Positions 1,281 to 57,250 of a DNA stretch of 64,000 nt are shown one piece after another; the first letter of the stretch is position 1, and the number at the start of each line of letters is the position of its first letter. Source of the DNA: Mobula hypostoma (taxonomy: Eukaryota); the NCBI RefSeq assembly GCF_963921235.1, contig NC_086108.1, positions 17,546,001-17,610,000 on the forward strand, written 5' to 3'. Position numbers and translations under genes: made by a program. The notes under the pieces are model-generated. The model searched no databases and had not been told where the DNA came from. It was given only the letters and a program-made list of their open reading frames with translations.

Positions 1281-1344
1281 TGTTCTATTCACTTGCTGAA
1301 ATAACCCCTGAACTGATAAACCTTTGACCTGGTAAAGTGTTTAC

Positions 1345-1604
1345 CTGGGGACTGTTGAGTGCTCCGTAGCCAACGGCCGGTGTGGATGGCAAGGACACAG
1401 AGGGAGAGCCGATTGACGATGTGATAACGGGGTATGGAGAGCCCAGTCCATTGACTGGAGAGGCCAAGCTTCCCAAGGGGGAGGTGAGGGGGCGCGAAGC
1501 ATTTATTGAAGATCCGATCATTGACTGGTGACCAACTACTGAGTTCACTGTTGAATGTGGGGATGCTGAGCTCATCGACGTGGAGTTCACTTGTATTGCC
1601 GAGT
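1345..1604 (-). CDS. rxrg: Retinoid X receptor gamma, exon 2 (A/B, AF-1 domain)
   Basis: Acceptor TTTCTTCTCCCCACAG|, donor CAG|GTAAAC; 260 nt, phase 1 to phase 0. Encodes (H)[86 protein letters not shown], a typical RXR A/B region ending at SPQ like RXR exon 2. The GSPYxVIT and SRPLxSP motifs favour RXRG. Confidence 0.93.
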
Positions 1605-1624
1605 CTGTGGGGAGAAGAAAGCTC

Positions 1625-1990
1625 ATTGGTAATAGGTTTATTATTCTGACGTGTATGTAAAAACTTTACTTTGCATCTCATTCATGGAGATCATTTAAAA
1701 CATCAACATATTGAGGCAGTACAAAGGGAAAAAGGCAATAACAGAATGCAGAACATTGTGTTACCAGTTGCAGAGAAAGTACATTTCAGGCAGACTAAGG
1801 CCATGACAAGGTAGATTGTAAGGTCAAAGCTCCATCTTATCGTACAAAAGGTCCATTCAATAGTAACAGCAAGATAGAAGTCATCCTTGAACCTGGTGGT
1901 CCATGGAAGGGAGACTTGCTTGTGTCATGAACTGAACTGTGTCCACAACTCTCTGAAACGTTTTGTAGTCTTGTATAGAGTAGATGTCAT
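1625..1990 (-). mobile_element. Degraded LINE (Rex/L2-type) 3' end abutting the exon 2 acceptor
   Basis: Shares a 3' UTR motif series with the copies at 19300-19640 and 61640-62000 (CACAATCTACCTTG...CACT...TGCATTCTGTT...AATAAACC). Confidence 0.5.
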
Positions 1991-2530: not shown

Positions 2531-3240
2531 ATTGAATTGAGTTTATTTCTTATATCCTTCACATACATGAGTAAAAATCATTACGTTACGTCTCCGTCTA
2601 AATGTGCAATGTGCAATGTGCAATCATAGTAATTTGTAATAATTTATAATAAATAGAACAGTCAATGTAATATAGAGTACACTCAAATCAGCGTGAGTTC
2701 ATTAGTCTGATGGCCTGGTGGAAGAAGTTGTCCTGGAGCCTGTTGGTCCTGGCTTTTATGTTGCGGTACCGTTTTCCGGAAGGTAGCAGCTGGAATAGAT
2801 TGTGGTTGGGGTGACTTGGGTCCTCAATGATCCTACAGGCCCTTTTTACACACCTGTCCTTGTAAATGTCCTGAATCATGGGAAGTTCACAACTACAGAT
2901 GCACTGGGCTGTTCACATATCTTCTGATTAAGGGAGATACAGTTTCCTTAACAGGCAGTGATGCAGACAATCAAGATGTTTTCAATTGTGCCCTGTAGAA
3001 AGTTCTTAGGATTTGGGGGCTCATACCAAACTTCCTCAACAGTCTGAGGTGAAAGAGGCGTTGTTGTGCCTTTTTCACCACACAGCTGGTGTGTACAGAC
3101 CACGTGAGGTCCTCGGTGATGTGGATGCTGAGGAACTTAAAGCTGTTCACCCTCTCAACCCCAGATCCATTCATGTCAATAGGGGTTAGCCTGTCTCCAT
3201 TCCTCCTGTAATCCACAACCAGCTCCTTTGTTTTTGCTTT
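2531..3240 (-). mobile_element. Rex1/Babar-type LINE, 5'-truncated 3' fragment
   Basis: ORFs VERVNSFKFLSIHITEDLTW...KKAQQRLFHLR and DPSHPNHNLFQLLPSGKRYR...NFFHQAIRLMN match the Rex1/Babar ORF C-terminus; (ATTCA)-type tail. Confidence 0.85.
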
Positions 3241-4707
3241 GAGAGAGTACAGGAATTGAGTACAGGATTTGCTTTGCTTTGTTTTGAGAGAGTACAGGAA
3301 TTGATTCCGGGAGGTGGGATTTCATACGGGGATCATTTTTGGAGAAGATTAAGAGGTTATTTGATCGGAGTAGGCAATATTAAGGCAGGTTTCAAAAGAG
3401 TGAAGGGAGGCAAACTATTCCCACAAATGGAATCAGAGACCAGAGGGCAAAGAACAAAAGGACTGGAAAAAGATCCAGACGGAAGGAGAGGAAAATGTTT
3501 TTTTCTTCAACACAGTGATAAGATATAATGAGGAATTCACTGTCTGAACATATACTTGATGCAGAGCCAACTGTGTACAGGGAACTGCAAATGTTTTGCT
3601 TTCAACAAATTATCCAATTCCTTCTGAAAGCCAGAACAGGGGAATGGGAGTGACTGCACGTCTCTACAACGTACTGCCATGCATTCAATGGGTTGAATGG
3701 TCCCCTTCTGTGTCCTAGGAAGGATTTGATAAAGTTGTAAAGATTAGGTAGGCTTGGATCTGGCTCAAAGTGGTAATTAAGGAGAAATACCGGCTTCTGG
3801 AAATAACGGCACAAGCCATGAGTCAGTGTTCCCAAGGGAGCTGCAGGCAGTGTGCGTGGTGGTGTAATGGTCAGCCTCAGGGGGCTGGGGGTGGGTTGGT
3901 GGTGGTGATGGTTTGAGTTTCCAGTGTGGGCTCCATTCGGCATGTATGCAGAGTAAGCTCAGTCACAGTTCCCATCAACGTAAACGATCATATTCAGCAA
4001 ATGTAACTACTCTGTCACCTTTCATGAAGACAGGGAGATGTGGGTCTTCCCCTAATGTTACTTGGCACATGTCAGCTTAATTTAACCTTGTGTTATCGCT
4101 CAATGACCTCCAACCATCCTCCTTGCTCAGCTTCAAGGCATTATTGTGGAGTGAATGTACACATAAGAAACTGAGCTGGGCACCTTTGTAATGGCCCGTA
4201 TTCCCAGCTGCAGTAGATGGAGGGAACTCAGCTGGTCTGCCTGCACATGGTCCATATCCATCCATTCTCTGTATATCCAAGAGCTTGTCTAGGAGCCTTT
4301 AATATGCATCCGTCATATCTGCATCCACCATGGCTTTTGGCAGTTTGTTCTAGCCACCACTCTCCTTCACATCTCCTTTGAACTTTCCCTCATTAAATGA
4401 ATGCCTTTTAATAATACCTTCTAACCAGGAAATACTGAAAGGGTTAATGGGAATAGCAGTAGGGCAAAGGCAGCACAGGGGCTATGAGCAGGAGAGACCA
4501 GGAGCTGAAGACTGGAGGGAATGCAATGAAGAGACAGAGAGATTGGGAGCCACAGGGGTTGAAGAGGTCAGAGAGTGATTTGAGATAAACCGATAAATCA
4601 GCAGTCCACCCATTGAAGTACTGGAGTGGTACCTTTAAGGGGAAGCTATGCAGCGGTGTGAGAGAAAAGGTTCATCCAGGGGGAACGTGTTTAGTAATGT
4701 GACCTGG

Positions 4708-5229: not shown

Positions 5230-8200
5230 TTCAGAAGGGTAGGGAAAGGAAGAGGATGGCAGCAGTGATAGGGGCCTCTATAGTTAGGGGGTCAGACAAC
5301 TGTGGACACAAGGAACAAACACGGATGGTAGTTTGTCTCCCAGGTGCCACGGTCTAGGATGTTTCTGATCGCATCCACGATATCCTGAAGTGGAAAGGTA
5401 AACAGCCAGAGGTCATGGTACATATTGGTACCAACGACATAGGCAGGAAAAGGTCCTGAAAACAGACTACAGGGAGTTAGGAAGGAAGTTGAAAAGCAGG
5501 ATGTCAAAGGTAGTAATCTCCGGATTATATCTCAGTGAGTATAGGAATAGGGTGAGGTGGAGAATAAATGCGTGGCTGAGGGATTGGAGCAGGGAGCAGG
5601 GATTCAGATTTCTGGATCATTGAGACCTCTTTTGGAGCAGGAGTGACCTGTACAAAAAGGACGGGTTGCACTTGAATCTGAGGGGGCCAAATATCCTGGC
5701 AGGGTGTTTTGTTAAGCCTATTGGGGAGAGTTTAAACTAGAATCGCTGGGGGGTGGGAGTCAAACTGAAGAAATGGAGGAAGGGGTGGTACGCTCATAAA
5801 TTGAGACAGTGTGAGAGGGAGGGTAGGCAGGTGGTAGAGAAGGAATACGCTCAGACTGATGGTTTGGGATGTGTCTATTTTAATGCAAGGAGTATCATGA
5901 ACAAAGCAGATCAGCTGACAGCATGGATCCGTACTTGGAACTATGATGTTGTGGCCTTTACAGAGACATGGATGGCTCAAGAGCAAGAATGGCCACTTAG
6001 AGTGCCAGGCTTCAGAGGCAAAAGAGGTGGGAGCATGGCACTGCTGATCAGAGATAATGTCATGGCTGCAGAAAATGAGGAAGTCATGCAGGGATTGTCT
6101 GCTGAGTCTCAGTGGGTGGAAGTTAGGAACAGGAAGGTGTCAATAGAGTTAGTGTTTTTCTATAGAGCACCCAATAATAACAGGGGCATCGAGCAGCAGA
6201 TAGGGAGACAGATTCTGGAATGATGAAATAATAACAGGGTTGTCGTGGTGGGAGATTTTAATTTTCCCAATATTGATTGGCATCTCTCTAAAACAAGAGA
6301 TTTAGATGGAGTGGAGTTTGTTAGGTGTGTTCAGGTAGGTTTCCCGACACAATAAGTAGATAAGCCTACAAGAGGAGAGGCTGTACTTGATCTGGTATCA
6401 GGAAATGAATCTGGTCAGGTGTCAGGTCTCAGTGGGAGAGCATTTTGGAAATAGTGATCACAATTTAGGAAAGCATTTAATTGGAGTAAGGGGAATTATG
6501 AAGCTATCAGGCAGGAACTTGGAAGAATAAACTGAGAACAGATGTTCTCAGAGAAATGTACGGCAGAAATGTGGCAAACGTTCAGGGGATATTTGCGTAG
6601 TGTTCTGTATAGGTACATTCCAATGAGACAGTCAGAATGGTAGGGTACAGGGAACTATGGTGTAGAAAGGCTGTTGAAAATCTAGTCAAGAAAAGAAAAG
6701 CTTATGAAAGATTCAAAAATCTAGGTAATCTAGACAGCAGACACCAACAGAATCAACAAACTCATTCATAAGGCCAGTGATGTTGTGGGGATGGAACTGG
6801 ACTCTCTCACGGTGGTGTCTGAAAAGAGGATGCTGTCTAAGTTGCATGCCATCTTGGACAATGTCTCCCATCCACTACATAATGTACTGGGTGGGCACAG
6901 GAGTACATTCAGCCAGAGACTCATTCCACCGAGATGCAACACAGAGCGTCATAGGAAGTCATTCCTGCCTGTGGCCATCAAACGTTACAACTCCTCCCTT
7001 GGAGGGTCTGACACCTTGAGCCAATAGGCTGGTCCTGGACTTATTTCATAATTTACTGGCATAATTTACATATTACTATTTACCTATTTATGGTTCTATT
7101 ACTATTTATTATTTATGGTGCAACTGTAACGAAAACCAATTTCCCCGGGGATCAATAAAGTATGACTACTACTACTACTACTAATGATAGAGATCTAGAA
7201 AATTATAAGGCTAGCAGGAAGGAGCTTAAGAATGAAATTAGGAGAGCCAGAAGGGGCCATGAGAAGGCCTTGGCAGACAGGATTAAGGAAAACCCCAAGG
7301 CATTGTACGAGTATGTGAAGAGCAAGAGGATAAGATGTGAGAGAATAGGACCAATCAAGAGTGACAGTGGAAAAGTGTGTATGGAACTGGAGGAGATAGC
7401 TGAGGCACATACTTAATGAATACCTTGCTTCAGTATTCACTATGGAAAAGGACCTTGGCGATTGTAGGGATGACTTTCAGCAGACTGAAAAGCTTTAGCA
7501 TGTAGACATTAAGAAAGAGGATGTGCTGGAACTCTTGGAAAGCATCAATTTGGATAATTCACTAGGACTGTTCGAGATATACCCCAGGCTACTGTGGGAG
7601 GTGAGGGAGGAGATTGCTGAGCCTCTGGCAATGTTCTTTGCATCATCAATGGGGACGGGAGAGGTTCTGGAGGATTGGAGGATTGCAGATGTTGTTCCCC
7701 TATTCAAGAAAGGGAGTGGAGATAGCTCAGGAAATTATAGACCAGTGAGTCTTACTTCAGTGGTTGGTAAGTTGATGGTGAAGATCCTGACAGGCAGGAT
7801 TTATGAACATTTGGAGAGGCATAATATGATTAGGAGTACGTAGTCAGAATGGCTTTGTCAAAGGCAGGTTGTACCTTACGAGCCTGATTGAATTTTTTGA
7901 GGATGTGACTAAACACATTGATGAAGGTAGAGCAGTAGATGTAGATATGGATTTCGGCAAAACATTTGATAAGGTACCCCATGCAAGGTTCATTGAGAAA
8001 GTAAGAAGGCATGGGATCCAAGGGGACATTGTTTTGTGGATCCAGAATTGGCTTGCCCACAAAAGGCAAAGAGTGGTTTTAGATGGGTCATATTCTGTAT
8101 GGAGGTCGGTGACCAGTGGTGTGCCTCAGGGATCTGTTCTGGGACCCCTTCTCTTCTTGAGTTTTATAAATGACCTGGATGAGGAAGTGGAGGGATGGGT

Positions 8201-9110
8201 TAGTAAATTTGCTGATGACATAAAGGTTGGGGGTGTTGTGGATAGTGTGGAGGGCTGTCAGAGGTTATACTGGGAAATCGATAGGGTGCAAAACTGGGCT
8301 AAGAAGTGACAGATGGAGTTCAACCCAGATAAGTGTGAGGTGGTTCATTTTGGTAGATCAAATATAATGGCAGAATATAGTATTAATGGTAAGAGTCTTG
8401 GCAATGTGGAGAATCAGAGGGATCCTGGGGTCCATGCCCATAGGACACTCAAAGCTGCAGTGCAGGTTGACTCTGTGGTTAAGAAGGCATACGGTGCATT
8501 GGCCTTCATCAACCATGGGATTGATTTCAAGAGCTGAGAGGTAATGTTACAGCTATATAGGACCCTGGTCAGACCCCACTTGGAGTACTTGCTCAGTTCT
8601 GGTCACCTCACTACAGGAAGGATGTGGAAACTATAGAAAAGGTGCAGAAGAGATCTGCAAGGATGTTGCCTGGATTGGGGAGCATGCCTTCGCATGCCAT
8701 AGGTTGAGTGAACTTGGCCTTTTCTCCATGGAGCGAAAGAGGATTAGAAGTGACCTGATAAAGGTGTATAAGATGATGAGAGGCATTGATCATGTGGATG
8801 ATCAGGGGCTTTTCCCCAGGGCTGGAATGGCTAACACGAGAGGGCACAGTTTTAAGGTGCTTGGAAGTAGGTGCAGAGGGATGTCAGGGGTAAGCTTTTT
8901 TAAGCAGAGAATGGTGAGTGTGGAATGCGCTGCTGGCAACTGTGGAGGAGGCGGATACAATAAGGTCTTTTAAGAGTCTCCTGGATAGGTACATGGAGCT
9001 TAGATAAATAGAGGGCAATGGGTAACCCTAGGTAATTTCTCAGCTAAGTACATGTTCCGCACAGCATTGTAAGCCAAAGGGCCTCTATTGTGCTGTAGGT
9101 CTTCTATGTT
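5230..9110 (+). mobile_element. CR1 LINE, near full-length but decayed (ORF1 SGNH esterase, ORF2 APE + RT)
   Basis: VIGASIVRG...VCLPGA...VHIGTNDIG (esterase); YFNARSIMNK...YDVVAFTETW (APE); GVPQGSVLGP...KFADD (RT). Multiple stops and frameshifts; TTCTATGT tail at ~9102-9110. Confidence 0.93.
6730..7181 (+). mobile_element. Rex1/Babar LINE 3' fragment inserted into the CR1
   Basis: Nearly identical to the 3' ends of the copies at 22630-23070 and 56805-57250; (ACT)n tail; short TAAT duplication (6726-6729 / 7182-7185). Confidence 0.9.
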
Positions 9111-9276
9111 TCCAGATTCCCCAGCAAATTTCAAACCTTTTGTAAAGTTTAAGACCAAATGCTACTCACACACAACTGGCAAACTGCATTGGACTAGTTT
9201 GAGAGATTCACTAGAACAGTTTATTTCATTTTGAAATGGCGGTACAATTTATCCTTGCCTTCTTTACCAGGTTATT

Positions 9277-9470
9277 GGGGTGTATGGGATGTCAGGGAGG
9301 GGTAGCACCTCTGGTGGAGGAACATGCCATGTCCTTTTCAAGGCGGTTAGTCCACCTTTGGTCCCCACCTGGCACTCAGCTCTCACCTGTGGCTCCCCGT
9401 AGCTGTTTGCATGCGATAGCGGCCACACCCCGGGCAACGGCTTCGACAAGCCGGCTAAACCAGGTGAGGG
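9277..9470 (+). ncRNA. HDV-like self-cleaving ribozyme (predicted)
   Basis: P1 GGGGTGT 9277-9283 / ACACCCC 9425-9431. P2 CTCTCACCTGT 9380-9390 / AC(C)AGGTGAGGG 9459-9470. P3 GGC 9391-9393 / GCC 9422-9424. L3 TCCCCGT. P1.1 CC 9395-9396 / GG 9432-9433, followed by GCAA. P4 CGGCTT/AAGCCG. J4/2 G-C9455-TAA (C75 equivalent). Confidence 0.8.
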
Positions 9471-9855
9471 TTGCCGACGGGTCTCAAACCCTCGGTGAGA
9501 TAGGGAGTTGTCTATCCCAGCATGTGACGACAGACTCCGGCGGATTGAGCGGACGAGACCAATGGAAGGTCCAACGGTCAAGAAGGCGGTCTCTGCAAGC
9601 GTCGTGGAATGTGTAGAGCAGGACAAGACACAGAAGACGTTCTGGTCATCCACTGCGCCTAGTCCCATCTCCAGCCACTTCGACTGTGTCTTGCCACTGG
9701 ATCCAGATGGGAATTGGAAAGACAGAGTGAGGCTGATGCTGCGCAACTCTCCCTCACTTAAATCCAAATCACGCGCTAGTTTCGACACCATCATAATGGT
9801 GTCAAGGTCCTCACTGATGTCGACAATGGACGAACACACATACACACACACACAC
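9277..9855 (+). mobile_element. Non-autonomous RTE-derived short retroelement with 5' HDV-like ribozyme and (CA)n tail
   Basis: TSD ACCAGGTTATT(G) at 9266-9277 and 9856-9867; CpG-rich (young); (CA)n tail; no tRNA boxes. The RTE affinity is from recalled similarity to RTE 5' UTR-derived SINEs. Confidence 0.85.
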
Positions 9856-10094
9856 ACCAGGTTATTGCCAGATATGTCAGCAACATTTATGGTGCTCAGA
9901 TAAAGAACTCTGCCCTCATTTCAGAGATAAACCTACCACTTCAAAAGTAATCTTCAGCTCATCGCAGTGCTTTTTCCTGGCAGAAACCACAACCTGTAAT
10001 GCACTTAAAAGTGCTCCCTGCACAATGCAGCAGAGGAACAGGCCTTTTAGCTCATGATGTGTGAAACTAATTAAGTTAAAGGCACCCAATCCCT

Positions 10095-19835: not shown

Positions 19836-22800
19836 TATACAGGTGCTCAAAGCCTGTGCCCCTCAGCTATGTGGAGTACTTCGCCACATCTTCATCCTGA
19901 GCCTGAGACTCCGGAGGGTTCCTGTGCTGTGGAAGACATCCTGCCTCGTCCCTGTGCCGAAGACGCCGCGCCCCAGCGGCCTCAATGACTACAGACTGGT
20001 GGCATTGACCTCCCACATCATGAAGACCCTGGAGAGACTTGTCCTGGAGCTGCTCCGGCCTATGGTCAGGCTGCACTTAGATCCCCTCCAGTTTGCCTAC
20101 CAGCCCTGACTAGGAGTTGAGGATGCCATCGTCTACCTGCTGAACCGTGTCTACGCCCACCAGGACAAGCCATCGAGCACTGTGAGGGTCATGTTTTTTG
20201 ACTTCTCCAGCGCGTTCAACACCATCCGCCCTGCTCTGCTGGGGGAGAAGCTGACAGCGATGCAGGTGGATGCTTTCCTGGTGTCATGGATTCTTGATTA
20301 CCTGATTGGCAGACGACAGTACGTGTGCTTGCAACACAGTGTATCCGACAGAGTGATCAGCAGCACTGGGGCTCCACAGGGGACTGTCTTGTCTCCCTTT
20401 CTCTTCACCATCTAAACCTCGGACTTCAACTACTGCACAGAGTCTTGTCATCTTCAGAAGTTTTCTGATGACTCTGCCATAGTTGGATGCATCAGCAAGG
20501 GAGATGAGGCTGAGTACAGGGCTACTGTAGGAAACTTTGTCACATGGTGTGAGCAGAATTATCTGCAGCTTAATGTGAAAAAGACTAAGGAGCTGGTGAC
20601 AGACCTGAGGAGAGCTAAGGTGACCCCTGTTTCCATCCAGGGGGTCAGTGTGGACATAGAAACATAGAAACATAGAAAATAGGTGCAGGAGTAGGCCATT
20701 CGGCCCTTCGAGCCTGCACCGCCATTTATTATGATCATGGCTGATCCTCCAACTCAAAACCCTGCCTCAGCCTTCCCTCCATACCCCCTGACCCCCGTAG
20801 CCACAAGGGCCATATCTAACTCCCTCTTAAATATAGCCAATGAACTGGCCTCAACTATTTCCTGTGGCAGAGAATTCCACAGATTCACCACTCTCTGTGT
20901 GAAGAAATTTTTCCTAATCTCGGTCCTAAAAGGCTTCCCCTCTATCCTCAAACTGTGGCCCCTCGTTCTGGACTTCCCCAACATCGGGAACAATCTTCCT
21001 GCATCTGGCCTGTCCAATCCCTTTAGGATCTTATACGGTTCAATCAGATCCCCCCTCAATCTTCTAAATTCCAACGAGTACAAGCCCAGTTCATCCAGTC
21101 TTTCTTCATATGAAAGTCCTGCCATCCCAGGAATCAATCTGGTGAACCTTCTTTGTACTCCCTCTATGGCAAGGATGTCTTTCCTCAGATTAGGGGACCA
21201 AAACTGCACACAATACTCCAGGTGTGGTCTCACCAAGGCCTTGTACAACTGCAGTAGTACCTCCCTGCTCCTGTACCCGAATCCTCTCGCTATAAATGCC
21301 AGCATACCATTCGCCTTTTTCACCGTCTGCTGTACCTGCATGCCCACTTTCAATGACTGGTGTATAATGACACCCAGGTCTCGTTGCACCTCCCCTTTTC
21401 CTAATCGGCCACCATTCAGATAATAACCTGTTTTCCTATTTTTGCCACCAAAGTGGATAACTTCACATTTATCCACATTAAATTGCATCTGCCATGAATT
21501 TGCCCACTCACCCAACCTATCCAAGTCACCCTGCATTCTCTTAGCATCCTCCTCACAGCTAACACTGCCACCCAGCTTCGTGTCATCCGCAAACTTGGAG
21601 ATGCTGCATTTAATTCCCTCATCCAAGTCATTAATATATATTGTAAACAACTGGGGTCCCAGCACTGAGCCTTGCGGTACCCCACTAGTCACCGCCTGCC
21701 ATTCTGAAAAGGTCCCGTTTATTCCCATTCTTTGCTTCCTGTCTGCTAACCAATTCTCCACCCACATCAATACCTTACCCCCAATACTGTGTGCTTTAAG
21801 TTTGCACACTAATCTCCTGTGTGGGACCTTGTCAAAAGCCTTTTGAAAATCCACATCCAGTGGTTCTCCCCTATCCACTCTACTAGTTACGTCCTCAAAA
21901 AATTCTATGAGATTCGTCAGACATGATTTTCCTTTCACAAATCCATGCTGACTTTGTCCAATGATTTCACCGCTTTCCAAATGTGCTGTTATCGCATCTT
22001 TGATAACTGACTCCAGCAGTTTCCCCACCACCGACGTTAGGCTAACTGGTCTATAATTCCCCGGTTTCTCTCTCCCTCCTTTTTTAAAAAGTGGGGTTAC
22101 ATTAGCCACCCTCCAATCCTCAGGAACTAGTCCAGAATCTAACGAGTTTTGAAAAATTATCACTAATGCATCCACTATTTCTTGGGCTACTTCCTTAAGC
22201 ACTCTGGGATGCAGACCATCCGGCCCTGGGGATTTATCTGCCTTTAATCCCTTCAATTTACCCAACACCACTTCCCTACTAACATGTATTTCGCTCAGTT
22301 CCTCCATCTCACTGGACCCTCTGTCCCCTACTATTTCTGGAAGATTATTTATGTCCTCCTTAGTGAAGACAGAACCAAAGTAATTATTCAATTGGTCAAA
22401 TGCATAACATGGTGGAGGATTACAAATACCTGGGGGTATGAATTGATAATAAACTAGACTTGTCAAAGAACACTGAGGCTGTCTACAAGAAGGGTCAGAG
22501 CCGTCTCTATTTCCTGAGGAGACTGAAGTCCTTTAACATCTGTCGGACGATGCTGAGGATGTTCTACGAGTCTGTGGTGGCCAGTGCGATCATGTTTTCT
22601 GTTGTGTGCTGGGGCAGCAGGCTGAGTGTAGCAGACACCAACATAATCAACAGATTCATTCGTAAGGCCAGTGATGTTGTGGGGATGGAACTGAACTCTC
22701 TGACGGTGGTGTCTGAAAAGAGGATGCTGTCCAAGTTGCATGCCATCTTGGTCAATGCCTCCCATCCACTACATAATGTACTGTGTGGGAACAGGAGTAC

Positions 22801-23073
22801 ATTCAGCCAGAGACTCATTCCACCGAGATGCAACACTGAGCGTCATAGGAAGTCATTCCTGCCTGTGGCCATCAAGCTTTACAACTCCTCCCTTGGAGGG
22901 TCAGACACCCTGAGCCAATAGGCTGGTCCTGGACTTATTTCCTGGCATAATTTACATATTACTATTTATGGTTTTATTACTATTTAATTATTTATGGTGC
23001 AACTGTAACGAAAACCAATTTCCCCCGGGATCAATAAAGTATGACTATGACTATGAATATGACTACTATGACT
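19836..23073 (+). mobile_element. Rex1/Babar LINE RT region, split by a CR1 insertion
   Basis: WKTSCLVPVPK...NDYRLVALTSHIMKTLERL...LDPLQFAY*, FFDFSSAFNTI, GAPQGTVLSPFLF*, QKFSDD; resumes at 22407; (TATGAC)n tail. Confidence 0.93.
20654..22397 (-). mobile_element. Young CR1 LINE (RT intact except a 9-nt in-frame deletion), inserted in Rex1
   Basis: ORF 20754-22466 with KSPGPDG, NYRPVSLTS, DFQKAFDKV, GVPQGSVLGP, FADD; ACAT duplicated at 20654-20657 / 22407-22410. Confidence 0.95.
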
Positions 23074-45450: not shown

Positions 45451-48118
45451 TCATAAGACAGAGGAGCAGAATTAGGCCATTCAGCCCATCAAGTCTGATC
45501 TGCCAGTCCATCGTGGCTGATCCCGGATCCCACTCAACCCCATACACCTCACCATGTCCTTTGATGTCCTGACCGATCAGGAAACAATCAATTTCTGCCT
45601 TAAATATACCCACAGACTTGGCCTCCACTGCAGAGCGTTCCACAGATTTATTACTCCCTCGCTAAAAAACTTACTTCTTACCTCTGTTCTAAAGGGTCGC
45701 CCCTCAATTTTGAGGCTGTGCCCTCTAGTTCTGGATACCCCCACCATAGTAAACATCCTCTCCACATCCACCCTATCTAGTCCTTTTAACATTTAGTAAG
45801 TTTCAATGAGATTCCCCCCTCCACATTCTTCTAAATTCCAGTGAGTACAGGCTCAAAGCTGCCAAAAGCTTTGATAACCCCTTCATATGATAACTCCTTC
45901 ATTCATGGAATCATCCTCGTGAACCTTCTCTGAACTATTTCCAATGACAACACATCCATTCAGAGAAATGGTGCCCAAAGAATATAAAAGTGGATAACTC
46001 TCCGGGTCCGGACAAGATATTCCATAGGACCTTGAGGGAAGTTAGTTTGGAAATAGCAGGGGCTCTGACAGAAATATTTCAAATGTCATTAGAAACGGGG
46101 ATGGTGCCGGAGGATTGGCGTATTGCTCGTGTGGTTCCATTGTTTAAAAAGGGTTCTAAGAGTAAACCTGGCAATTATCGGCCTGTGAGTTTGACGTCAG
46201 TGGTGGGTAAATTGATGGAAAGTATTCTTAGAGAGGTATATATAATTATCTGGATAGACAGGGTCTGATTAGGAACAGTCAACATGGATTTGTGCATGGA
46301 AGGTCATGTTTGACAAACCTTATTGAATTTTTTGATGAGATTACTAGGAAAGTTGACGAGGGTAAAGCGGTGGATGTTGTCTATATGGACTTCAGTAAGG
46401 CCTTTGACAAGGTTCCACACGGAAGGTTAGTTAGGCAGGTTCAATCGTTAGGCATTAATATTGAAGTAGTAAAATGGATTCAGCAATGGCTGGATGGGAG
46501 ATGCCAGAGAGTAGTGGTGGATAACTACGTGTCAGATTGGAGGATGGTGTGTAGCGGTGTGCCTCAGGGATCTGTACTGGGTCCAATGTTGTTTGTCATC
46601 TATATTAATGATCTGGATGATGGGGTGGTAAATTGGATTAGTAAGTATGCAGATGATACTAAGACAGGTGGCGTTGTGGATAATGAAGTAGGTTTTCAAA
46701 GCTTGCAGAGAGATTTAGGCCAGTTAGAAGAGTGAGCTGAAAGATGGCAGATGGAGCTTAATGCTGAAAAATGTGAGGTACTACATCTTGGTAGGACTAA
46801 TCAAAATAGGACATACATGGCAAATAGGTAAATAAGACATACATGGGCATTGAAGAATGCTGTAGAACAGAGGGATCTAGGAATAATGGTGCATAGTTCC
46901 CTGAAGGTAAAATCTCGTGTGGATAGGGTGGTGAAGAAAGCTTTTGGTATGCTGGCCTTTATTAATCAGAGCATTGAGTACAAGAGTTGGGATGTAATGT
47001 TGAAATTGTATAAAGCATTGGTAAGGCCAAATTTGGAGTATTGTGTACAGTTCTGGTCACCAAATTATAGGAAAGATGTCAATAAAATTGAGAGAGTACA
47101 GAGGAGGTTTACTAAAATGTTGCCTGGGTTTCATCTCCTAAGTTACAGAGAAAGGTTGAACAAGTTAGGTCTTTATTCTTTGAAGTGTAGAAGGTTGAGA
47201 GGGAACTTGATAGAGGTGTTTAAAATTATGAGGGGGACTGATAGAGTTGATGTGGATAGGCTTTTTCCATTCAGGGTGGGGGAGATTCAAACAAGAGGAC
47301 ATGAGTTGAGAGTTAAAGGGCAAAAGTTTAGGGGTAACATGAGGGGGAACTTCTTTACTCAGAGAGTGGTGGCTGTATGGAACCAGTTTCCAGCAGAAGT
47401 GGTTGAGGCAGTTTTGATGTTGTCGTTTAAAGTTAAATTGGATAGATATATGGACAGGAAGGGAATGGAGGGTTATGGACCGAGTGGGACTAGGTGGGAC
47501 TAGGAGTTCGGCATGGACTAGAAGGGCCGAGATGGCCTGTTTCCGTGCTGTAATTGTTATATGGTTAAAACTGTTGACAATACTCCAAGTGTGGCCTGAC
47601 TAGTGAAATAAATGCCAACATTGCATTTGCCTTCTTTATCACAGACAACCTGTAAATAAACAGTCTGGGAGTCTTGCAAGAGGACTGCCATGTCCCTCTG
47701 CACCCCTGATGTCTGAACCTTCCCCCTATTTAGATTGGTCCTTTTACCAAAATGCATTATCATACATTTCCCAACACTGTATTCCATCTGCCACTTTTTT
47801 GCCCATTTCTAACTTGTCGAAGTCTTGTTGCAATCACATTGCTTCCTCGGCACTACCTACCCCTCCACTTATTTTCATATCATCTGCAAACTTTGTCACA
47901 AAGCCATCAATTCCATTATCTAAATCACTGACAAACAATGAGAAAAGTAGCAGTCCCAATACTGACTGCTAAGGAACACCACTAGTCACTGGCAGCCAAC
48001 CAGAAAAGGCTCCTTTTATTCTCACTCGCTGCCTCCTGCCTGTCAGCCATTTCACTATCCATGCTAGTACCTTTCCTGTAATGCCAGCGGATTTTATCTT
48101 GTTAATCAGCCTCATTTG
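45451..48118 (-). mobile_element. Older CR1 fragment split by a younger opposite-strand CR1
   Basis: MLKGLDRVDVERMF... (45577-45792) continues at 47557-48118 (MEYSVGKCMIMHFG); TGAAGA duplicated at 45445-45450 / 48119-48124. Confidence 0.8.
45979..47556 (+). mobile_element. CR1 LINE RT region, 5'-truncated
   Basis: NSPGPDKI, NYRPVSLTS, MDFSKAFDKV, GVPQGSVLGP, KYADD, RPNLEYCVQFWSP; TTATATGG tail. Confidence 0.93.
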
Positions 48119-53341: not shown

Positions 53342-55253
53342 ACATAGAAACATAGAAAATAGGTGCAGGAGTAGGCCATTCGGCCCTTCGAGCCTGCACT
53401 GCCATTTATTATGATCATGGCTGATCATCCAACTCAGAACCCTGCACCAGCCTTCCCTCCATACCCCCTGATCCCCGTAGCCACAAGGGCCATACCTAAC
53501 TCCCTCTTAAATATAGCCAATGAACTGGTCTCAACTGTTTCCTGTGGCAGAGAATTCCACAGATTCACCACTCTCTGTGTGAAGAAATTTTTCCTAATCT
53601 CGGTCCTAAAAGGCTTCCCCTTTATCCTCAATCTGTGACCCCTCGTTCTGGACTTCCCCAACATCGGGAACAATCTTCCTGCATCTAGCCTGTCCAATCC
53701 CTTTAGGATTTTATACGTTTCAATCAGATCTCCCCTCAATCTTCTAAATTCCAATGAGTACAAGCCCAGTTCATCCAGACTTTTTTCATATGAAAGTCCT
53801 GCCATCCCAGGAATCAATCTGGTGAATCTTCTTTGTACTCCCTCTATGGCAAGGATGTCTTTCCTCAGATTAGGGGACCAAAACTGCACACAATACTCCA
53901 GGTGTGGTCTCACCAAGGCCTTGTACAACTGCAGTAGTACCTCCCTGCTCCTGTACTCGAATCCTCTCGCTATAAATGCCAGCATACCATTCGCCTTTTT
54001 CACCGCCTGCTGTACCTGCATGCCCACTTTCAATGACTGGTGTATAATGACACCCAGGTCTTGTTGCACCTCCCCTTTTCCTAATTGGCCACCATTCAGA
54101 TAATAATCTGTTTTCCTATTTTTGCCACCAAAGTGGATAACTTCACATTTATCCACATTAAATTGCATCTGCCATGAATTTGCCCACTCACCCAACCTAT
54201 CCAAGTCACCCTGCATCCTCTTAGCATCCTCCTCATAGCTAACACTGCCGCCCAGCTTCGTGTCATCCGCAAACTTGGAGATGCTGCATTTAATTCCCTC
54301 ATCCAAGTCATTAATATATATTGTAAACAACTGGGGTCCCAGCACTGAGCCTTGCGGTACCCCACTAGTCACTGCCTGCCATTCTGAAAAGGTCCCATTT
54401 ATTCCCACTCTTTGCTTCCTGTCTGCTAACCAATTCTCTATCCACATCATACCTTACCCCCAATACCGTGTGCTTTAAGTTTGCACACTAATCTCCTGTG
54501 TGGGACCTTGTCAAAAGCCTTTTGAAAATCCAAATATACCACATCCACTGGTTCTCCCCTATCCACTCTACTAGTTACATCCTCAAAAAATTCTATGAGA
54601 TTCGTCAGACATGATTTTCCTTTCACAAATCCATGCTGACTTTGTCCGATGATTTCACCGCTTTCCAAATGTGCTGTTATCGCATCTTTGATAACTGACT
54701 CCAGCAGTTTCCCCACCACCGACGTTAGGCTAACTGGTCTATAATTCCCCGGTTTCTCTCTCCCTCCTTTTTTAAAAAGTGGGGTTACATTAGCCACCCT
54801 CCAATCCTCAGGAACTAGTCCAGAATCTAACGAGTTTTGAAAAATTATCACTAATGCATCCACTATTTCTTGGGCTACTTCCTTAAGCACTCTGGGATGC
54901 AGACCATCTGGCCCTGGGGATTTATCTGCCTTTAATCCCTTCAATTTACCCAACACCACTTCCCTACTAACATGTATTTCGCTCAGTTCCTCCATCTCAC
55001 TGGACCCTCTGTCCCCTACTATTTCTGGAAGATTATTTATGTCCTCCTTAGTGAAGACAGAACCAAAGTAATTATTCAATTGGTCTGCCATGTCCTTGCT
55101 CCCCATAATCAATTCACCTGTTTCTGTCTGTAGGGGACCTACATTTGTCTTTACCAGTCTTTTCCTTTTTACATATCTATAAAAGCTTTTACAGTCAGTT
55201 ATTATGTTCCCTGCCAGTTTTCTCTCATAATCTTTTTTCCCCTTCCTAATTAA
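53342..55253 (-). mobile_element. Young CR1 LINE, 1.9 kb, single frameshift
   Basis: ORFs 54447-55271 and 53434-54450 are split by a 1-nt deletion relative to the 20.6 kb copy; ACAT at both junctions; (TTTCTATG)n tail. Confidence 0.95.
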
Positions 55254-56227
55254 ACATTCAACATTCCACATTCAACATTTTAGCAGTGATCTAATAGCTT
55301 TTCTCAGTAGTAATGAGAGCTGCACATCCACTGTGGTACAGCTGAGCACAGAGAAACAAGTCATTGCAGAAAGACGTGCTTCCACACAATGCAACTAGAA
55401 ACAGAGATGATTAATTGTGAGGCTATGACTGAACTCAAACTACCATCATCCCAATCAGATGGTCAAGCTGCTCTCAATTCATGCCATATATCTGGGGCAA
55501 ACAGAATGGGCAAGCAAGGGTTAATAAAACAAAGTACATGGTCATTCCTTAGGATAGTAGTGCATATACAATATCCCTTCACGTTCCAGCGATGAAAGAC
55601 CCCCTCTTGGTCTTCTTATGGTCCTCTTCCCTTGTGGCATTAGATACTTATTTTCTCATGCGGTATTTAATTCAGTTAATTGTGACAAATCAAGGCAGAA
55701 CTTTTCACAGTGAACACCACGGCCCTGGGCAGTGTTGTACAACAGAGAGACTTAGAAGTACAAGTATATAATTCACTCAAAGTAGCATCAGATGTGGACA
55801 GAATTGTAAAGGTGTCTGGCACACTGGCCATCATTATATGAGTACAGGAGTTGAGACAGGATGCTGCAGTTGGTGAGGCTGCATTTGGAACGTGCCCAGT
55901 TTTGATCACCCTGCTATAGGAAAGAAACCATTAAGCTGGAAAGATTTCAGAAAAGATTGATTGGGATATTGCTGGGATTTGATGGACTGAGTTATAGGGA
56001 GAGGTTGAGAAGGCTCGGACTTTATTCATTGGAGTAGGTGGATGAGATGTGGTCTGATAGAGTTGAATAACATCATAAGGGGCATAGAAAGGGTGAATGC
56101 ACACTGAAAGGGGAATCAAGAACTAAAGGGTATAGGTTTAAAGTGAGAGGAGAAGAGATTTGATAGCGCCTGAGGGGCCAGATGATAGTACATACAGTAT
56201 ATGGAACGACTGGTATATGAAATATGG

Positions 56228-57250
56228 ACAGGCAGACCACAGTACATGTGCTTGCAACACTGTGTGTCCGACAGAGTGATCAGCAGCACTGGGGCTCCAC
56301 AGGGGACTGTCTTGTTTCCCTTTCTCTTCACCATTTACACCTCGGACTTCAACTACTGAACAGAGTCTTGTCATCTTCAGAAGTTTTCTGATGACTCTGC
56401 CATAGTTGGATGCATCAGCAAGGGAGATGAGGCTGAGTACAGGGCTACGGTAGGAAACTTTGTAACACGGAGTGAGCAGAATTATCTGCAGCTTAATGTG
56501 AAAAAGACTAAGGAGCTGGTGGTGGACCTGAGGAGGGCTAAGGCACCGGTGACCCCTGTTTCCATCCAGGGGGTCAGTGTGGACATGGTGGAGGATTACA
56601 AATACCTGGGGATACGAATTGATAATAAACTGGACTGGTCAAAGAACACTGAGGCTGTCTACAAGAAGGGTCAGAGCTGTCCGTATTTCCTGAGGAGACT
56701 GAGGTCCTTTAACATCTGCCGGATGATGCTGAGGATGTTCTATGAGTCTGTGGTGGCCAGTGCTATCATGTTTGCTGTTGTGTGCTGGGGCAGCAGGCTG
56801 AGGGTAGCAGACACCAACAGAATCAATAAACTCATTCGTAAGGCCAGTGATGTTGTGGGGATGGAACTGGACTCTCTGACGGTGGTGTCTGAAAAGAGGA
56901 TGCTGTCTAAGTTTCATGCTATCTTGGACAATGTCTCCCATCCACTACATAATGTACTGGTTGGGCACAGGAGTACATTCAGCCAGAGACTCATTCCACC
57001 AAGATTCAACACTGACCGTCATAGGAAGTCATTCCTGCCTGTGGCCATCAAACTTTACAACTCCTCCCTTGGAGGGTCAGACACCCTGAGCCAATAGGCT
57101 GGTCCTGGACTTATTTCCTGGCATAATTTACATATTACTATTTAATTATTTATGGTTTTATATTGCTATATTAATACTGTATTCTTGGTTGGGGTAACTG
57201 TAACGAAATTCAGTTTCCCTCGGGATCAATAAAGTATGACTATGACTATG
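56228..57250 (+). mobile_element. Rex1/Babar LINE 3' ~1 kb
   Basis: GAPQGTV, QKFSDD, KTKELVVDLRR...YKYLG...KSFLPVAIKLYN; (TATGAC)n tail. Confidence 0.93.

What the first reader, a model, noticed from the sequence alone, without database searches (positions are those of the whole stretch)
9277..9470. Complete HDV-like ribozyme forming the exact 5' end of a young short retroelement
Seen in sequence: every element of the HDV nested double pseudoknot is present in order. These are a 7-bp P1 (GGGGTGT/ACACCCC), an 11-bp P2 with one bulge, P3 GGC/GCC, L3 UCCCCGU, P1.1 CC/GG, the GG-GCAA-C...G-G-C motif identical to the genomic HDV ribozyme around C41/C75, a 6-bp P4 and J4/2 GCUAA. The 96-nt J1/2 itself folds (TGTCAGG 9290-9296 / CCTGGCA 9368-9374; GGTGGA 9313-9318 / TCCACC 9351-9356). 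The predicted cleavage site (5' of G9277) coincides with the element/TSD boundary. Established: HDV-like ribozymes process the 5' ends of R2, RTE and L1Tc non-LTR retrotransposons. Inference: this promoter-less, tRNA-less ~580-nt element is released from read-through host transcripts by self-cleavage and mobilised in trans, i.e. a ribozyme-headed SINE family in a cartilaginous fish. It is antisense to rxrg, so it would not cut the rxrg pre-mRNA.
Basis: partly seen in the sequence, partly recalled or inferred. Interest (0 to 1): 0.9.

Follow-up and report, generated by a model that had tools for sequence, protein, structure and literature searches.

The report
Ribozyme-headed short retroelement family
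A short, very abundant jumping element in this vertebrate genome begins with a well-conserved RNA fold of the hepatitis-delta self-cutting type, which would let each copy trim itself out of any longer transcript, though cutting itself has not been shown.

Summary
Window 9277-9855 is one copy of a non-coding retroelement with an 11-bp target duplication, a simple-repeat tail and 2293 exact copies of a 23-nt head motif in the genome (control 0).

Its first 195 nt can be drawn as a complete HDV-type nested double pseudoknot. The 7-bp P1 starts at element base 1.

A relaxed HDV descriptor found 0 matches in 701 kb of background from the same genome and 0 in 4485 shuffles.

Five lineages were compared: young family A, older family B and three lineages from metagenome contigs.
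- P2, P4 and the long J1/2 hairpin keep pairing through compensatory changes.
- P1, P3, P1.1, the L3 U-C-C..G residues and the J4/2 C never change.
- The head core is the best-conserved part of the element (91% between A and B, against 39-75% downstream).

- L3 is 28 nt and carries a conserved inserted hairpin.
- The cleavage-site pair is G-C, not G.U.
- The HDV-identical GGGCAAC is peculiar to family A.
- Rfam models do not detect the fold.

Self-cleavage, expression and the partner LINE remain unshown.

Verdict: a probable HDV-like ribozyme heading a SINE-like family, and a new variant of a known kind.

The parts
9266..9276 (+). 5' copy of the target-site duplication ACCAGGTTATT
   Evidence: The same 11-mer lies at 9856-9866. 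One search finds it as the exact duplication abutting the first G.
9277..9283 (+). P1 5' strand GGGGUGU. The predicted cleavage site is immediately 5' of G9277, which is element base 1.
   Evidence: It is identical in families A and B and in the metagenome lineages L094, L105, L099 and L101. Copies start here after unrelated flanks.
9284..9378 (+). J1/2: one long irregular hairpin (element nt 11-101). It closes 3 nt after P1 and 1-2 nt before P2, like a P1.2 peripheral domain.
   Evidence: RNAfold gives -43 to -47 kcal/mol in A, B and the window copy. The architecture is the same in L094, L099, L101 and L105. Family-level compensations: G-C 45 / A-U 24, and A-U 46 / G-C 24.
9379..9389 (+). P2 5' strand
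   Evidence: It pairs with 9461-9471: 11 pairs, 2 of them G.U. 99.2% of cells are paired across 11 sequences. C9387-G9463 becomes A-U in L101, and C9386-G9464 becomes U.G in L094 and L105.
9391..9393 (+). P3 5' strand GGC
   Evidence: It pairs with 9422-9424 and never varies in 11 sequences.
9394..9421 (+). L3, 28 nt: core UCCCCGU (U, C, C and G invariant; the two middle positions and the last one vary), then an inserted hairpin 9402-9407 with 9415-9420.
   Evidence: L3 cores are UCCCCGU (A), UCCAAGU (B, L094, L105, L101) and UCCACGA (L099). The hairpin is kept in all five lineages with wobble-compatible changes. A contig of run X10 joins UCCAAGC directly to GCCACACC, without the hairpin.
9422..9424 (+). 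P3 3' strand GCC
9425..9431 (+). P1 3' strand ACACCCC
   Evidence: It is invariant in all lineages.
9432..9433 (+). P1.1 GG, pairing with C9396 and C9395 of L3
   Evidence: GG is present in the A and B consensus and in L094, L105, L099 and L104. L101 has AG at a CpG.
9434..9437 (+). J1.1/4 (GCAA here). It varies among lineages.
   Evidence: GCAA, UACA, CAAA, UAAA.
9438..9453 (+). P4 hairpin: 6 bp (9438-9443 with 9448-9453), loop CGAC
   Evidence: The second pair is G-C in A and C-G in B and the other lineages. The fifth pair is U-A, U.G or C-G.
9454..9460 (+). J4/2 GCUAAAC with candidate catalytic C9455
   Evidence: It is identical in the A and B consensus. In the metagenome loci it was fixed by the search pattern, so those loci are no independent evidence.
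9461..9471 (+). P2 3' strand
9472..9783 (+). Non-coding body of the element
   Evidence: No Pfam family at E below 0.1 for the open frame 9499-9837. Identity between the A and B consensus falls from 75% to 55% along it.
9784..9803 (+). 3' stem-loop GACACCAU-CAUA-AUGGUGUC of family A. Family B lacks it.
9826..9855 (+). 3' end ...AUGGACGAACA followed by the (AC)n tail. Other copies carry (ACA)n or (ACCA)n.
9856..9866 (+). 3' copy of the target-site duplication

Best explanation
Window 9277-9855 is a copy of a non-coding, non-autonomous non-LTR retroposon (SINE-like). Its conserved 195-nt head is an HDV-like self-cleaving ribozyme.

Proposed mechanism:
1. The element has no recognisable Pol III-type head, so it is probably transcribed as part of longer transcripts or from a weak internal promoter (inferred).
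2. The head folds into the nested double pseudoknot P1/P1.1/P4 and P2/P3. The long J1/2 hairpin pinches P1 and P2 together (inferred from comparative data and from published work on J1/2 domains).
3. C9455 in J4/2 and a bound Mg2+ would cleave the backbone 5' of G9277. This gives an RNA whose first base is the first base of the element (inferred, not tested).
4. A LINE reverse transcriptase, still unidentified, recognises the 3' end with its simple-repeat tail. It copies the RNA by target-primed reverse transcription, making 5-13-bp target duplications and some 5'-truncated copies (pattern shown, enzyme inferred).
5. Full-length copies carry the ribozyme with them, so any new copy in a transcribed region can again be released.

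The 21-nt hairpin inserted in L3 is a lineage-wide peripheral addition. It is unusual for this fold.
For: Fold and its significance:
- The fold is complete and anchored at base 1.
- The relaxed descriptor gives 0 hits in 701,320 background bases and 0 in 4485 shuffles.

Family and ends:
- 2293 exact copies of the 23-nt J4/2-P2 motif, control 0.
- 27 of 40 best matches start at query position 1 and 37 of 40 at positions 1-3.
- 19 of 29 copies anchored by their 3' end are full length.
- 26 of 46 full-length copies have an exact target duplication of 7 nt or more. 21 of those 26 end directly at the first G.
- Older family B and the four metagenome copies with a 5' end also start at GGGGTGT after unrelated flanks.

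Selection on the head, A against B consensus identity:
- P1 7 of 7.
- Core nt 103-195 85 of 93.
- J1/2 77 of 95.
- Downstream, 75%, 68%, 55% and 39% in successive segments.
- All 8 core differences lie in L3 positions 4-5, in J1.1/4, or in P4, where pairing is kept.

Covariation:
- 73 copies: 93.7% of cells paired against 38-49% when slid. P4 second pair G-C 39 / C-G 14 / U.G 7 / U-A 3. Two J1/2 pairs swap G-C and A-U between families.
- 11 sequences of 5 lineages: 96.0% paired against 40-48% slid. P2 is 99.2% paired, with one C-G to A-U double change and three one-sided changes.

Pattern of invariance, which matches what is described for HDV-type cores:
- The L3 U, CC and G are fixed while positions 4-5 vary.
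- C21 and C22 of L3 form P1.1 (PMC1874588, passages).
- G25.U20 is a reverse wobble at the active site (PMC13635239 and PMC3774820, passages).

Precedents (PMC3774820 and PMC4908430, passages):
- J1/2 loops of 216-498 nt occur in active R2 ribozymes.
- A helix in J1/2 accelerates mosquito HDV-like ribozymes.
- Ribozymes cleave at the 5' end of R4, Dong, Baggins and L1Tc.

Not a classical SINE head: ARAGORN finds no tRNA and Rfam gives no small-RNA match at E up to 10.
Against: - No experiment and no RNA data show cleavage.
- No Rfam HDV-family model matches, at gathering score or at E up to 10. This holds for the window copy and for six other copies of the lineages.
- L3 is 28 nt instead of the usual 7-8. 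I found no published HDV-like ribozyme with a hairpin there, so the insert might disable catalysis.
- The cleavage-site pair is G-C rather than G.U. The G.U wobble is reported to contact the catalytic metal (title of a reference listed in PMC13635239).
- P1, P3 and P1.1 never vary, so these helices rest on complementarity and position alone. The P1 5' strand is also the element's terminus and could be fixed for another reason.
- A second GGGGUGU at element nt 10-16 could pair with the same 3' strand.
- A sharp 5' end would also result from a fixed transcription start.
- The thermodynamic signal of the nested fold is modest (z -1.87).
- For the metagenome lineages, the P2 3' strand and J4/2 were fixed by my search pattern apart from one G/T position.
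- The partner LINE was not found.
Confidence: 0.74

Rival explanations
1. The head is a conserved structured RNA or DNA module with another role, and it does not self-cleave. The role could be an internal Pol II or Pol III promoter with a 5' leader, or a binding platform for the partner's proteins. The HDV-like drawing would then reflect descent from a ribozyme that the L3 insert and the G-C cleavage-site pair have disabled, or convergence.
For: - The L3 insert and the G-C pair depart from canonical HDV cores.
- No Rfam hit.
- P1 shows no covariation.
- A defined 5' end also fits a fixed transcription start.
- L1Tc's first 77 nt are both promoter and ribozyme (PMC3383444, abstract), so promoter function in such heads has a precedent.
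Against: - The residues that stay fixed are those that matter for catalysis rather than for mere structure: L3 U, CC and G, the P1.1 GG and the J4/2 C. Helices are free to covary.
- The inserted hairpin is itself conserved in five lineages that have each produced copies. The 2293 exact motif copies were counted for the window's genome only.
- Family A has a TTTT run at element nt 59-62 (consensus; window 9335-9338). By general knowledge this would tend to stop Pol III.
Confidence: 0.16
2. The ribozyme is real and active, but it is inherited baggage from a parent LINE's 5' end. The short element would be an internally deleted LINE, like R2 SIDEs or NARTc, rather than an independent ribozyme-headed SINE lineage. 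The head would serve the LINE's biology, for example processing and translation.
For: - Known ribozyme-headed non-autonomous elements arose this way (PMC3414825 abstract; PMC3383444 abstract).
- 12 genomic matches (control 1) to a core without the L3 hairpin might belong to such a parent. So might a hairpin-less contig in run X10 that has different sequence after P2.
Against: - The short element as a whole is conserved across lineages that are only 71-77% identical. This covers the head plus body motifs such as GGTCATCCACTGC and GAGAGAGTG. The short form has therefore evolved as its own lineage for a long time.
- No copy examined continues into LINE sequence.
- Families A and B share the head but not the 3' end: 39% identity over the last 61 nt.
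Confidence: 0.08
3. Chance resemblance: a G+C-rich repeat that happens to allow an HDV-like drawing.
For: The nested-fold z-score is only -1.87.
Against:
- Compensatory changes in P2, P4 and J1/2.
- The core is the most conserved part of the element.
Confidence: 0.02

Closest known systems
HDV-like ribozymes at the 5' ends of non-LTR retrotransposons (R2, R4, Dong, Baggins, L1Tc; RTE from my recollection of Ruminski et al. 2011, a paper not held here)
   Same: Nested double pseudoknot placed so that cleavage creates the element's own 5' end. L3, P3 and P1.1 are highly conserved while the helices covary. J1/2 is large (PMC3774820, passages and section 15).
   Different: Here the carrier is a roughly 580-nt non-coding element spread through the genome, not an autonomous LINE. 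L3 carries a 21-nt hairpin insert. The cleavage-site pair is G-C. No Rfam model recognises it.
NARTc, RIME and SIDER of trypanosomatids (Pr77/L1TcRz head) and R2 SIDEs of Drosophila
   Same: Non-autonomous retroposons that keep an HDV-like ribozyme at the 5' end and depend on a LINE in trans (PMC3383444, PMC4035085 and PMC3414825, abstracts).
   Different: Those are recognisable deletion derivatives of a known parent LINE, and R2 SIDEs are rDNA-specific. Here no parent is known, insertion is dispersed with variable target duplications, the host is a vertebrate, and the short form itself is conserved across diverged lineages.
Mosquito drz-Agam-2 type ribozymes with a structured J1/2 (P1.2) domain
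   Same: A stable helix in J1/2 closes next to P1 and P2. [quoted passage not shown]
   Different: The J1/2 hairpin here is about 90 nt. Its effect is untested.
Other ribozyme-bearing short retroelements (twister variants in Schistosoma non-LTR elements, PMC8501958 abstract; hammerhead-bearing retrozymes, PMC7761336 abstract)
   Same: A small self-cleaving ribozyme processes the RNA of a mobile element.
   Different: A different ribozyme class and a different architecture.
Classical SINEs (tRNA-, 7SL- or 5S-derived head with an internal Pol III promoter)
   Same: Short, non-coding and high in copy number, with target duplications, 5' truncations, a simple-repeat tail and a modular structure: a shared head with differing 3' ends in families A and B.
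   Different: No tRNA, 7SL or 5S similarity. The head is a ribozyme-like fold.

Membership tests
HDV-like self-cleaving ribozymes | P1 helix (6-7 bp) whose first nucleotide is the cleavage site | tested here: met
   7 Watson-Crick pairs, 9277-9283 with 9425-9431. The helix is invariant in all lineages, so there is no covariation test.
HDV-like self-cleaving ribozymes | P2 helix forming the outer pseudoknot with P1 | tested here: met
   11 pairs. 99.2% of cells are paired in 11 sequences, with one C-G to A-U double change and three one-sided changes. The 3' strand of the metagenome sequences was constrained by the search pattern.
HDV-like self-cleaving ribozymes | 3-bp P3 stacked directly on P1's 3' strand | tested here: met
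   GGC with GCC, adjacent to ACACCCC. It never varies.
HDV-like self-cleaving ribozymes | Short L3 (7-8 nt) with conserved U, CC and G | tested here: inconclusive
   U, C, C and G are present and invariant, and positions 4-5 vary. But L3 is 28 nt with an inserted hairpin. I found no precedent in the passages read.
HDV-like self-cleaving ribozymes | P1.1: two G following P1 pair with the two C of L3 | tested here: met
   G9432 and G9433 with C9396 and C9395. GG is kept in the A and B consensus and in 4 of 5 metagenome copies.
HDV-like self-cleaving ribozymes | Catalytic C in J4/2, a few nt before P2's 3' strand | tested here: met
   C9455 in GCUAAAC is identical in the A and B consensus. Its catalytic role cannot be tested here.
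HDV-like self-cleaving ribozymes | G.U wobble at the cleavage site | tested here: not met
   G9277 pairs with C9431, in all lineages.
HDV-like self-cleaving ribozymes | P4 helix (dispensable in some members) | tested here: met
   6 bp with two pairs changed on both sides across lineages.
HDV-like self-cleaving ribozymes | Match to a curated covariance model (Rfam HDV-type families) | tested here: not met
   No hit at gathering score or at E up to 10. The 95-nt J1/2 and the 21-nt L3 insert are a likely reason. That reason is an inference.
HDV-like self-cleaving ribozymes | Divalent-ion-dependent self-scission giving a 5'-OH product | not testable with these tools
   No RNA run on record holds the stretch. 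The contigs laid cannot show RNA ends.
SINE / non-autonomous non-LTR retroposon | Short, non-coding and dispersed in high copy number, with target duplications, 5' truncations and a simple-repeat tail | tested here: met
SINE / non-autonomous non-LTR retroposon | Head derived from a Pol III gene (tRNA, 7SL, 5S) | tested here: not met
   ARAGORN finds 0. No Rfam small-RNA match at E up to 10.
SINE / non-autonomous non-LTR retroposon | 3' end shared with a partner LINE | tested here: inconclusive
   No LINE sharing the 3' end was seen in 29 loci anchored by the 3' end or in the window. A genome-wide look was not possible.

The most novel reading that the evidence does not exclude
This is a distinct class of vertebrate SINE. 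Its head is a self-cleaving HDV-like ribozyme instead of a Pol III promoter, it has been maintained as an independent short lineage in several species, and it swaps 3' modules between families. Each genome would then hold thousands of potential self-cleavage sites, and sense-oriented copies in introns could cut host pre-mRNAs. The conserved hairpin inside L3 would widen the known sequence space of the HDV fold, which explains why standard models miss it.
Probability: 0.55. Interest if true: 0.8.

Novelty: new variant of a known kind. Interest (0 to 1): 0.68.

Why it matters
- HDV-like ribozymes are known to process LINEs and a few of their deletion derivatives in insects and trypanosomes. A high-copy, evolutionarily persistent, ribozyme-headed short retroposon in a vertebrate would show that self-cleavage can replace an internal Pol III promoter as the head function of a SINE.
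- It would add at least 2293 candidate ribozyme sites to one genome, with possible effects on host transcripts.
- It would give a natural HDV-fold variant with a hairpin in L3 and a G-C cleavage-site pair for testing what the catalytic core tolerates.
- It shows that covariance models in current libraries miss such variants.

Tried and rejected
RNA-family and small-RNA searches:
- Rfam found nothing relevant at gathering score on the whole window, or at E up to 10 on 9150-9950 and on six other copies. The miRNA-like hits in L094 come from an unrelated inverted repeat upstream of that copy.
- ARAGORN found no tRNA.
- The bacterial promoter/terminator scan is uninformative for a eukaryote.

Expression:
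- No RNA holder is listed for the stretch. All four runs laid were contigs, so no RNA starts or ends can be read.

Partner LINE:
- The upstream DNA of the 10 truncated copies is not homologous between copies.
- No other copy or 3'-end relative lies in the window.
- LINE fragments in the window carry RVT_1, Exo_endo_phos and PF09004 domains but do not share the tail.

Coding potential:
- The open frame 9499-9837 has no Pfam family at E below 0.1.

RXR context:
- Motif searches for the DNA-binding and ligand-binding exons found none in the window. Only the AF-1 exon was found.

Access limits:
The 12 matches to a core without the L3 hairpin could therefore not be inspected, and no further subfamilies could be fetched.
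- The metagenome records could not be extended.
- Ruminski et al. 2011 (PMC3308841) is not held, so statements about RTE ribozymes are recalled.

Literature searches:
- HDV-like + ribozyme + shark + retrotransposon gave 1 paper, on R2.
- ribozyme + SINE + cartilaginous fish gave 1 paper, on R2.
- HDV-like ribozyme + SINE + retrotransposon gave 12 papers, none on a vertebrate SINE.

Earlier findings of this scan: nothing bearing on this element.
Full report
**What is there**

The sequence read shows a 579-nt insertion, window 9277-9855. It is bounded by a perfect 11-bp target-site duplication, ACCAGGTTATT, at 9266-9276 and 9856-9866. It ends in ...ATGGACGAACA followed by an (AC)n tail. I first took the end as 9857; the tail and the duplication share AC.

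The same element is highly repeated in the window's genome (G000, 3.48 Gb).
- A search with the whole element gave 3210 first-look candidates. The 40 that were scored were 93-95% identical.
- An exact 23-nt motif from the head occurs 1150 times forward and 1143 times reverse, against 0 for the reversed control.
- Other copies carry (ACA)n or (ACCA)n tails after the same terminal motif.

**The 5' end**

- Of the 40 scored full-length matches, 27 start at query position 1 and 37 at positions 1-3. That set is biased towards full length.
- A less biased sample came from a search with only 75 nt of the 3' end. Among 29 loci other than the window itself, 19 are full length and 10 are truncated at scattered positions: 55, 71, 114, 124, 225, 311, 354, 357, 360 and 467. 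The DNA upstream of the truncated copies is not shared between them, so none continues into a longer parent.
- 46 full-length family-A copies were examined and one more was skipped. 26 have an exact duplication of 7 nt or more, and in 21 of these it ends directly at the first G. 29 of 46 have exactly four leading G.

This is the pattern of LINE-mediated, target-primed insertion of an RNA whose 5' end is GGGGUGU.

**The fold**

From 9277 the sequence can be drawn as a full HDV-type nested double pseudoknot:
- P1 9277-9283 with 9425-9431, 7 Watson-Crick pairs.
- P2 9379-9389 with 9461-9471, 11 pairs of which 2 are G.U.
- P3 9391-9393 with 9422-9424.
- P1.1 G9432 and G9433 with C9396 and C9395.
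- P4 9438-9443 with 9448-9453.
- J4/2 GCUAAAC with C9455.

Two parts are larger than in textbook members.
- J1/2 (95 nt) folds into one long hairpin of -43 to -47 kcal/mol. It closes 3 nt after P1 and 1-2 nt before P2.
- L3 is 28 nt: UCCCCGU, A, a 6-bp hairpin (9402-9407 with 9415-9420) and G.

The ordinary nested minimum-energy fold contains the J1/2 hairpin, P2 and P4, and leaves the P1 5' strand free. It is -84.8 kcal/mol, z -1.87, and 5 of 200 shuffles fold as well. The opposite strand gives z -0.49.

**Is it chance?**

I wrote a deliberately loose descriptor with these requirements:
- P1 of 7 bp with at most one G.U.
- GG straight after P1.
- A 3-bp P3 directly before P1's 3' strand.
- L3 of 7-30 nt starting UCC.
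- P2 of at least 7 bp ending 0-2 nt before P3.
- CNAA within 3 nt of P2's 3' strand.

It recovers the element at base 1. It finds nothing in 701,320 bases (both strands) of the window plus 86 loci of the same genome with the element copies masked. There, 12 places reached the P3/UCC stage and 1 of them also had a P2. It finds nothing in 4485 dinucleotide shuffles of the G+C-rich 5' 300 nt.

**Comparative evidence**

A diverged copy seen by accident in the flank of L060 led to an older family B. Copies of A differ from their consensus by 1.9% on average (29 copies). Copies of B differ by 14.1% (30 copies) over the head region.

Identity between the two consensus sequences:

| Segment | Identity |
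|---|---|
| P1 | 7 of 7 |
| J1/2 | 77 of 95 |
| Core nt 103-195 | 85 of 93 |
| nt 196-300 | 75% |
| nt 301-400 | 68% |
| nt 401-500 | 55% |
| nt 501-561 | 39% |

The head is thus the most constrained module. The 3' ends differ, and the A-family stem-loop 9784-9803 is absent in B.

One scan of public metagenome contigs with an 18-nt pattern from J4/2 and P2 gave 15 loci. Five are true homologues: L094, L105, L099, L101 and the truncated L104. These are at most 77% identical to any scored copy of this genome, so they represent further lineages. The four that include a 5' end begin with GGGGTGTATGGG after unrelated flanks.

Contigs of four coded sequencing runs from other organisms also lie on the element at 80% likeness or more. 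They show the family-B-type variants.

**What varies and what does not**

- P2: C9387-G9463 is A-U in L101. C9386-G9464 is U.G in L094 and L105. Two outer pairs change one-sidedly in L101. 99.2% of cells are paired.
- P4: the second pair is G-C in A and C-G elsewhere. The fifth pair is U-A, U.G or C-G.
- J1/2 hairpin: two pairs swap G-C and A-U between A and B (45/24 and 46/24 copies), and several change between wobble and Watson-Crick. The hairpin architecture is kept in every lineage.
- Overall, 96.0% of cells pair in the 11-sequence alignment, against 40-48% when the partners are slid. In the 73-copy alignment the figures are 93.7% against 38-49%.
- P1, P3 and P1.1 do not vary at all, so they are neither supported nor contradicted by covariation.
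- In L3 the U, the two C and the G are fixed, while positions 4-5 are CC, AA or AC and position 7 is U or A. J1.1/4 is GCAA, UACA, CAAA or UAAA.

This matches what is described for HDV-type cores. C21 and C22 of L3 form P1.1 (PMC1874588, passage). The L3 G forms a reverse wobble with the L3 U next to the active site and is highly conserved (PMC3774820 and PMC13635239, passages).

Caveat: in the metagenome sequences, J4/2 and the P2 3' strand were fixed by my pattern except for one G/T position. The compensating A in L101 lies in the unconstrained strand.

**Departures from the family**

- No Rfam model matches, even at E up to 10.
- The cleavage-site pair is G-C rather than the G.U wobble.
- L3 carries a hairpin. 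I recall that the last L3 nucleotide of the genomic HDV ribozyme (U27) can be deleted, which would make this a plausible place for an insert.
- One contig of run X10 joins UCCAAGC directly to GCCACACC without the hairpin and continues differently after P2.
- A pattern for such a hairpin-less core has 12 matches in this genome against 1 in the control. These could belong to a parent or partner element, but they could not be fetched.
- A second GGGGUGU at element nt 10-16 lies in the J1/2 hairpin and could compete for the P1 3' strand.

**How it most likely works**

Shown:
- A family of short non-coding retroposons with a precise 5' end.
- A head that is under stronger constraint than the rest of the element.
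- A pattern of pairing and invariance that fits an HDV-like ribozyme placed to cut exactly at base 1.

Inferred:
- The RNA is made as part of longer transcripts.
- It cleaves itself 5' of G9277 through C9455 and Mg2+.
- It is then copied by a LINE reverse transcriptase that recognises the 3' end.

Published precedents:
- Ribozymes cleave at the 5' end of R4, Dong, Baggins and L1Tc, and active R2 ribozymes have J1/2 loops of 216-498 nt (PMC3774820).
- A J1/2 helix activates mosquito ribozymes (PMC4908430).
- Ribozyme-headed non-autonomous elements are known: NARTc (PMC3383444, PMC4035085) and R2 SIDEs (PMC3414825).

I put about 0.74 on this reading. The rivals get 0.16 for a conserved but non-cleaving head module, 0.08 for an active ribozyme in a mere deletion derivative of a LINE, and 0.02 for chance.

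- A Pfam Nuc_recep-AF1 match (E 5.8e-27) at 1288-1665 on the minus strand shows an RXR-type receptor gene on the opposite strand. No other RXR exon motif was found in the window.
- The element lies 7.6 kb on the 5' side of that exon. Being antisense to the gene is plausible only if the transcript starts further upstream. The paralogue was not determined.
- The organism could not be named with the tools.

**Novelty**

My literature searches found no vertebrate SINE-like element with an HDV-like head. The principle itself is known from insects and trypanosomes. I therefore rate this a new variant of a known kind.

It is of real interest for four reasons: its copy number, its persistence across lineages, the L3 insert, and its invisibility to standard models.

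Noticed in passing
window 1288-1665 (-): An open frame matching Pfam Nuc_recep-AF1 (PF11825, E 5.8e-27), that is an RXR-type N-terminal exon on the minus strand. No DNA-binding or ligand-binding exon motif was found elsewhere in the window.
   Followed up: partly
window 20757-22532 (-), 53437-55271 (-), 46232-46732 (+), 7830-8306 (+), 5741-6220 (+), 56360-57094 (+), 22442-22918 (+), 2974-3321 (-): Several LINE fragments with RVT_1, Exo_endo_phos and PF09004 (ALKBH8_N-like) matches, including a 592-codon open reverse-transcriptase frame. None shares the 3' end of the element.
   Followed up: partly
L104:1-477 and L105 (same metagenome contig WLWI01056178.1): The contig starts inside a head copy. 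Its homology to the family stops about 60 nt after P2, and an open frame running from inside the head remnant (L104:93-467) matches Peptidase_M16 there (residues 15-96, E 1.5e-20). The frame reads LLLEH where, from memory, M16 enzymes carry the HxxEH zinc motif. A second, full head copy lies at the other end of the contig. This may be a chimeric retrocopy or an exon next to an insertion.
   Followed up: partly
element nt 1-7 and 10-16 (window 9277-9283 and 9286-9292; the window copy has A at 9289 where the consensus has G): The P1 5' strand GGGGUGU is repeated 9 nt downstream, where it forms the base of the J1/2 hairpin. Either copy could pair with ACACCCC, which suggests a possible alternative register or folding switch.
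   Followed up: no
G000, 12 places listed: A core pattern without the L3 hairpin (GGC-UCCNNGN-GCC-ACACC) has 12 genomic matches against 1 in the control. Three of them have L3 UCCUCGU. They could belong to a parent or partner element with a canonical L3. They could not be fetched.
   Followed up: no
3' junctions of family A copies (L002-L060): Tails are (ACA)n, (ACCA)n or (AC)n. Most exact target duplications start with A (for example ACCAGG..., ATTACA..., AGTTGG...), so tail and target overlap by microhomology. A link between tail repeats and the first base of the duplication is described for RTE-related retroposons (PMC6007223, abstract).
   Followed up: partly
window 9335-9338 (element nt 59-62): Family A has a TTTT run inside the J1/2 hairpin and family B does not. 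By general knowledge, four T would tend to terminate Pol III, which argues against Pol III transcription of family A.
   Followed up: no
L094:58-195: A long, near-perfect inverted repeat lies just upstream of that element copy and produces miRNA-precursor-like Rfam hits below gathering score. It is unrelated to the ribozyme.
   Followed up: no
L101 (reverse strand), oriented positions 221-260: This copy has GGGGTGTATGGG twice, separated by (AT)n, at its 5' end. This may be a duplication of the terminus or a tandem or partial insertion in an AT microsatellite.
   Followed up: no
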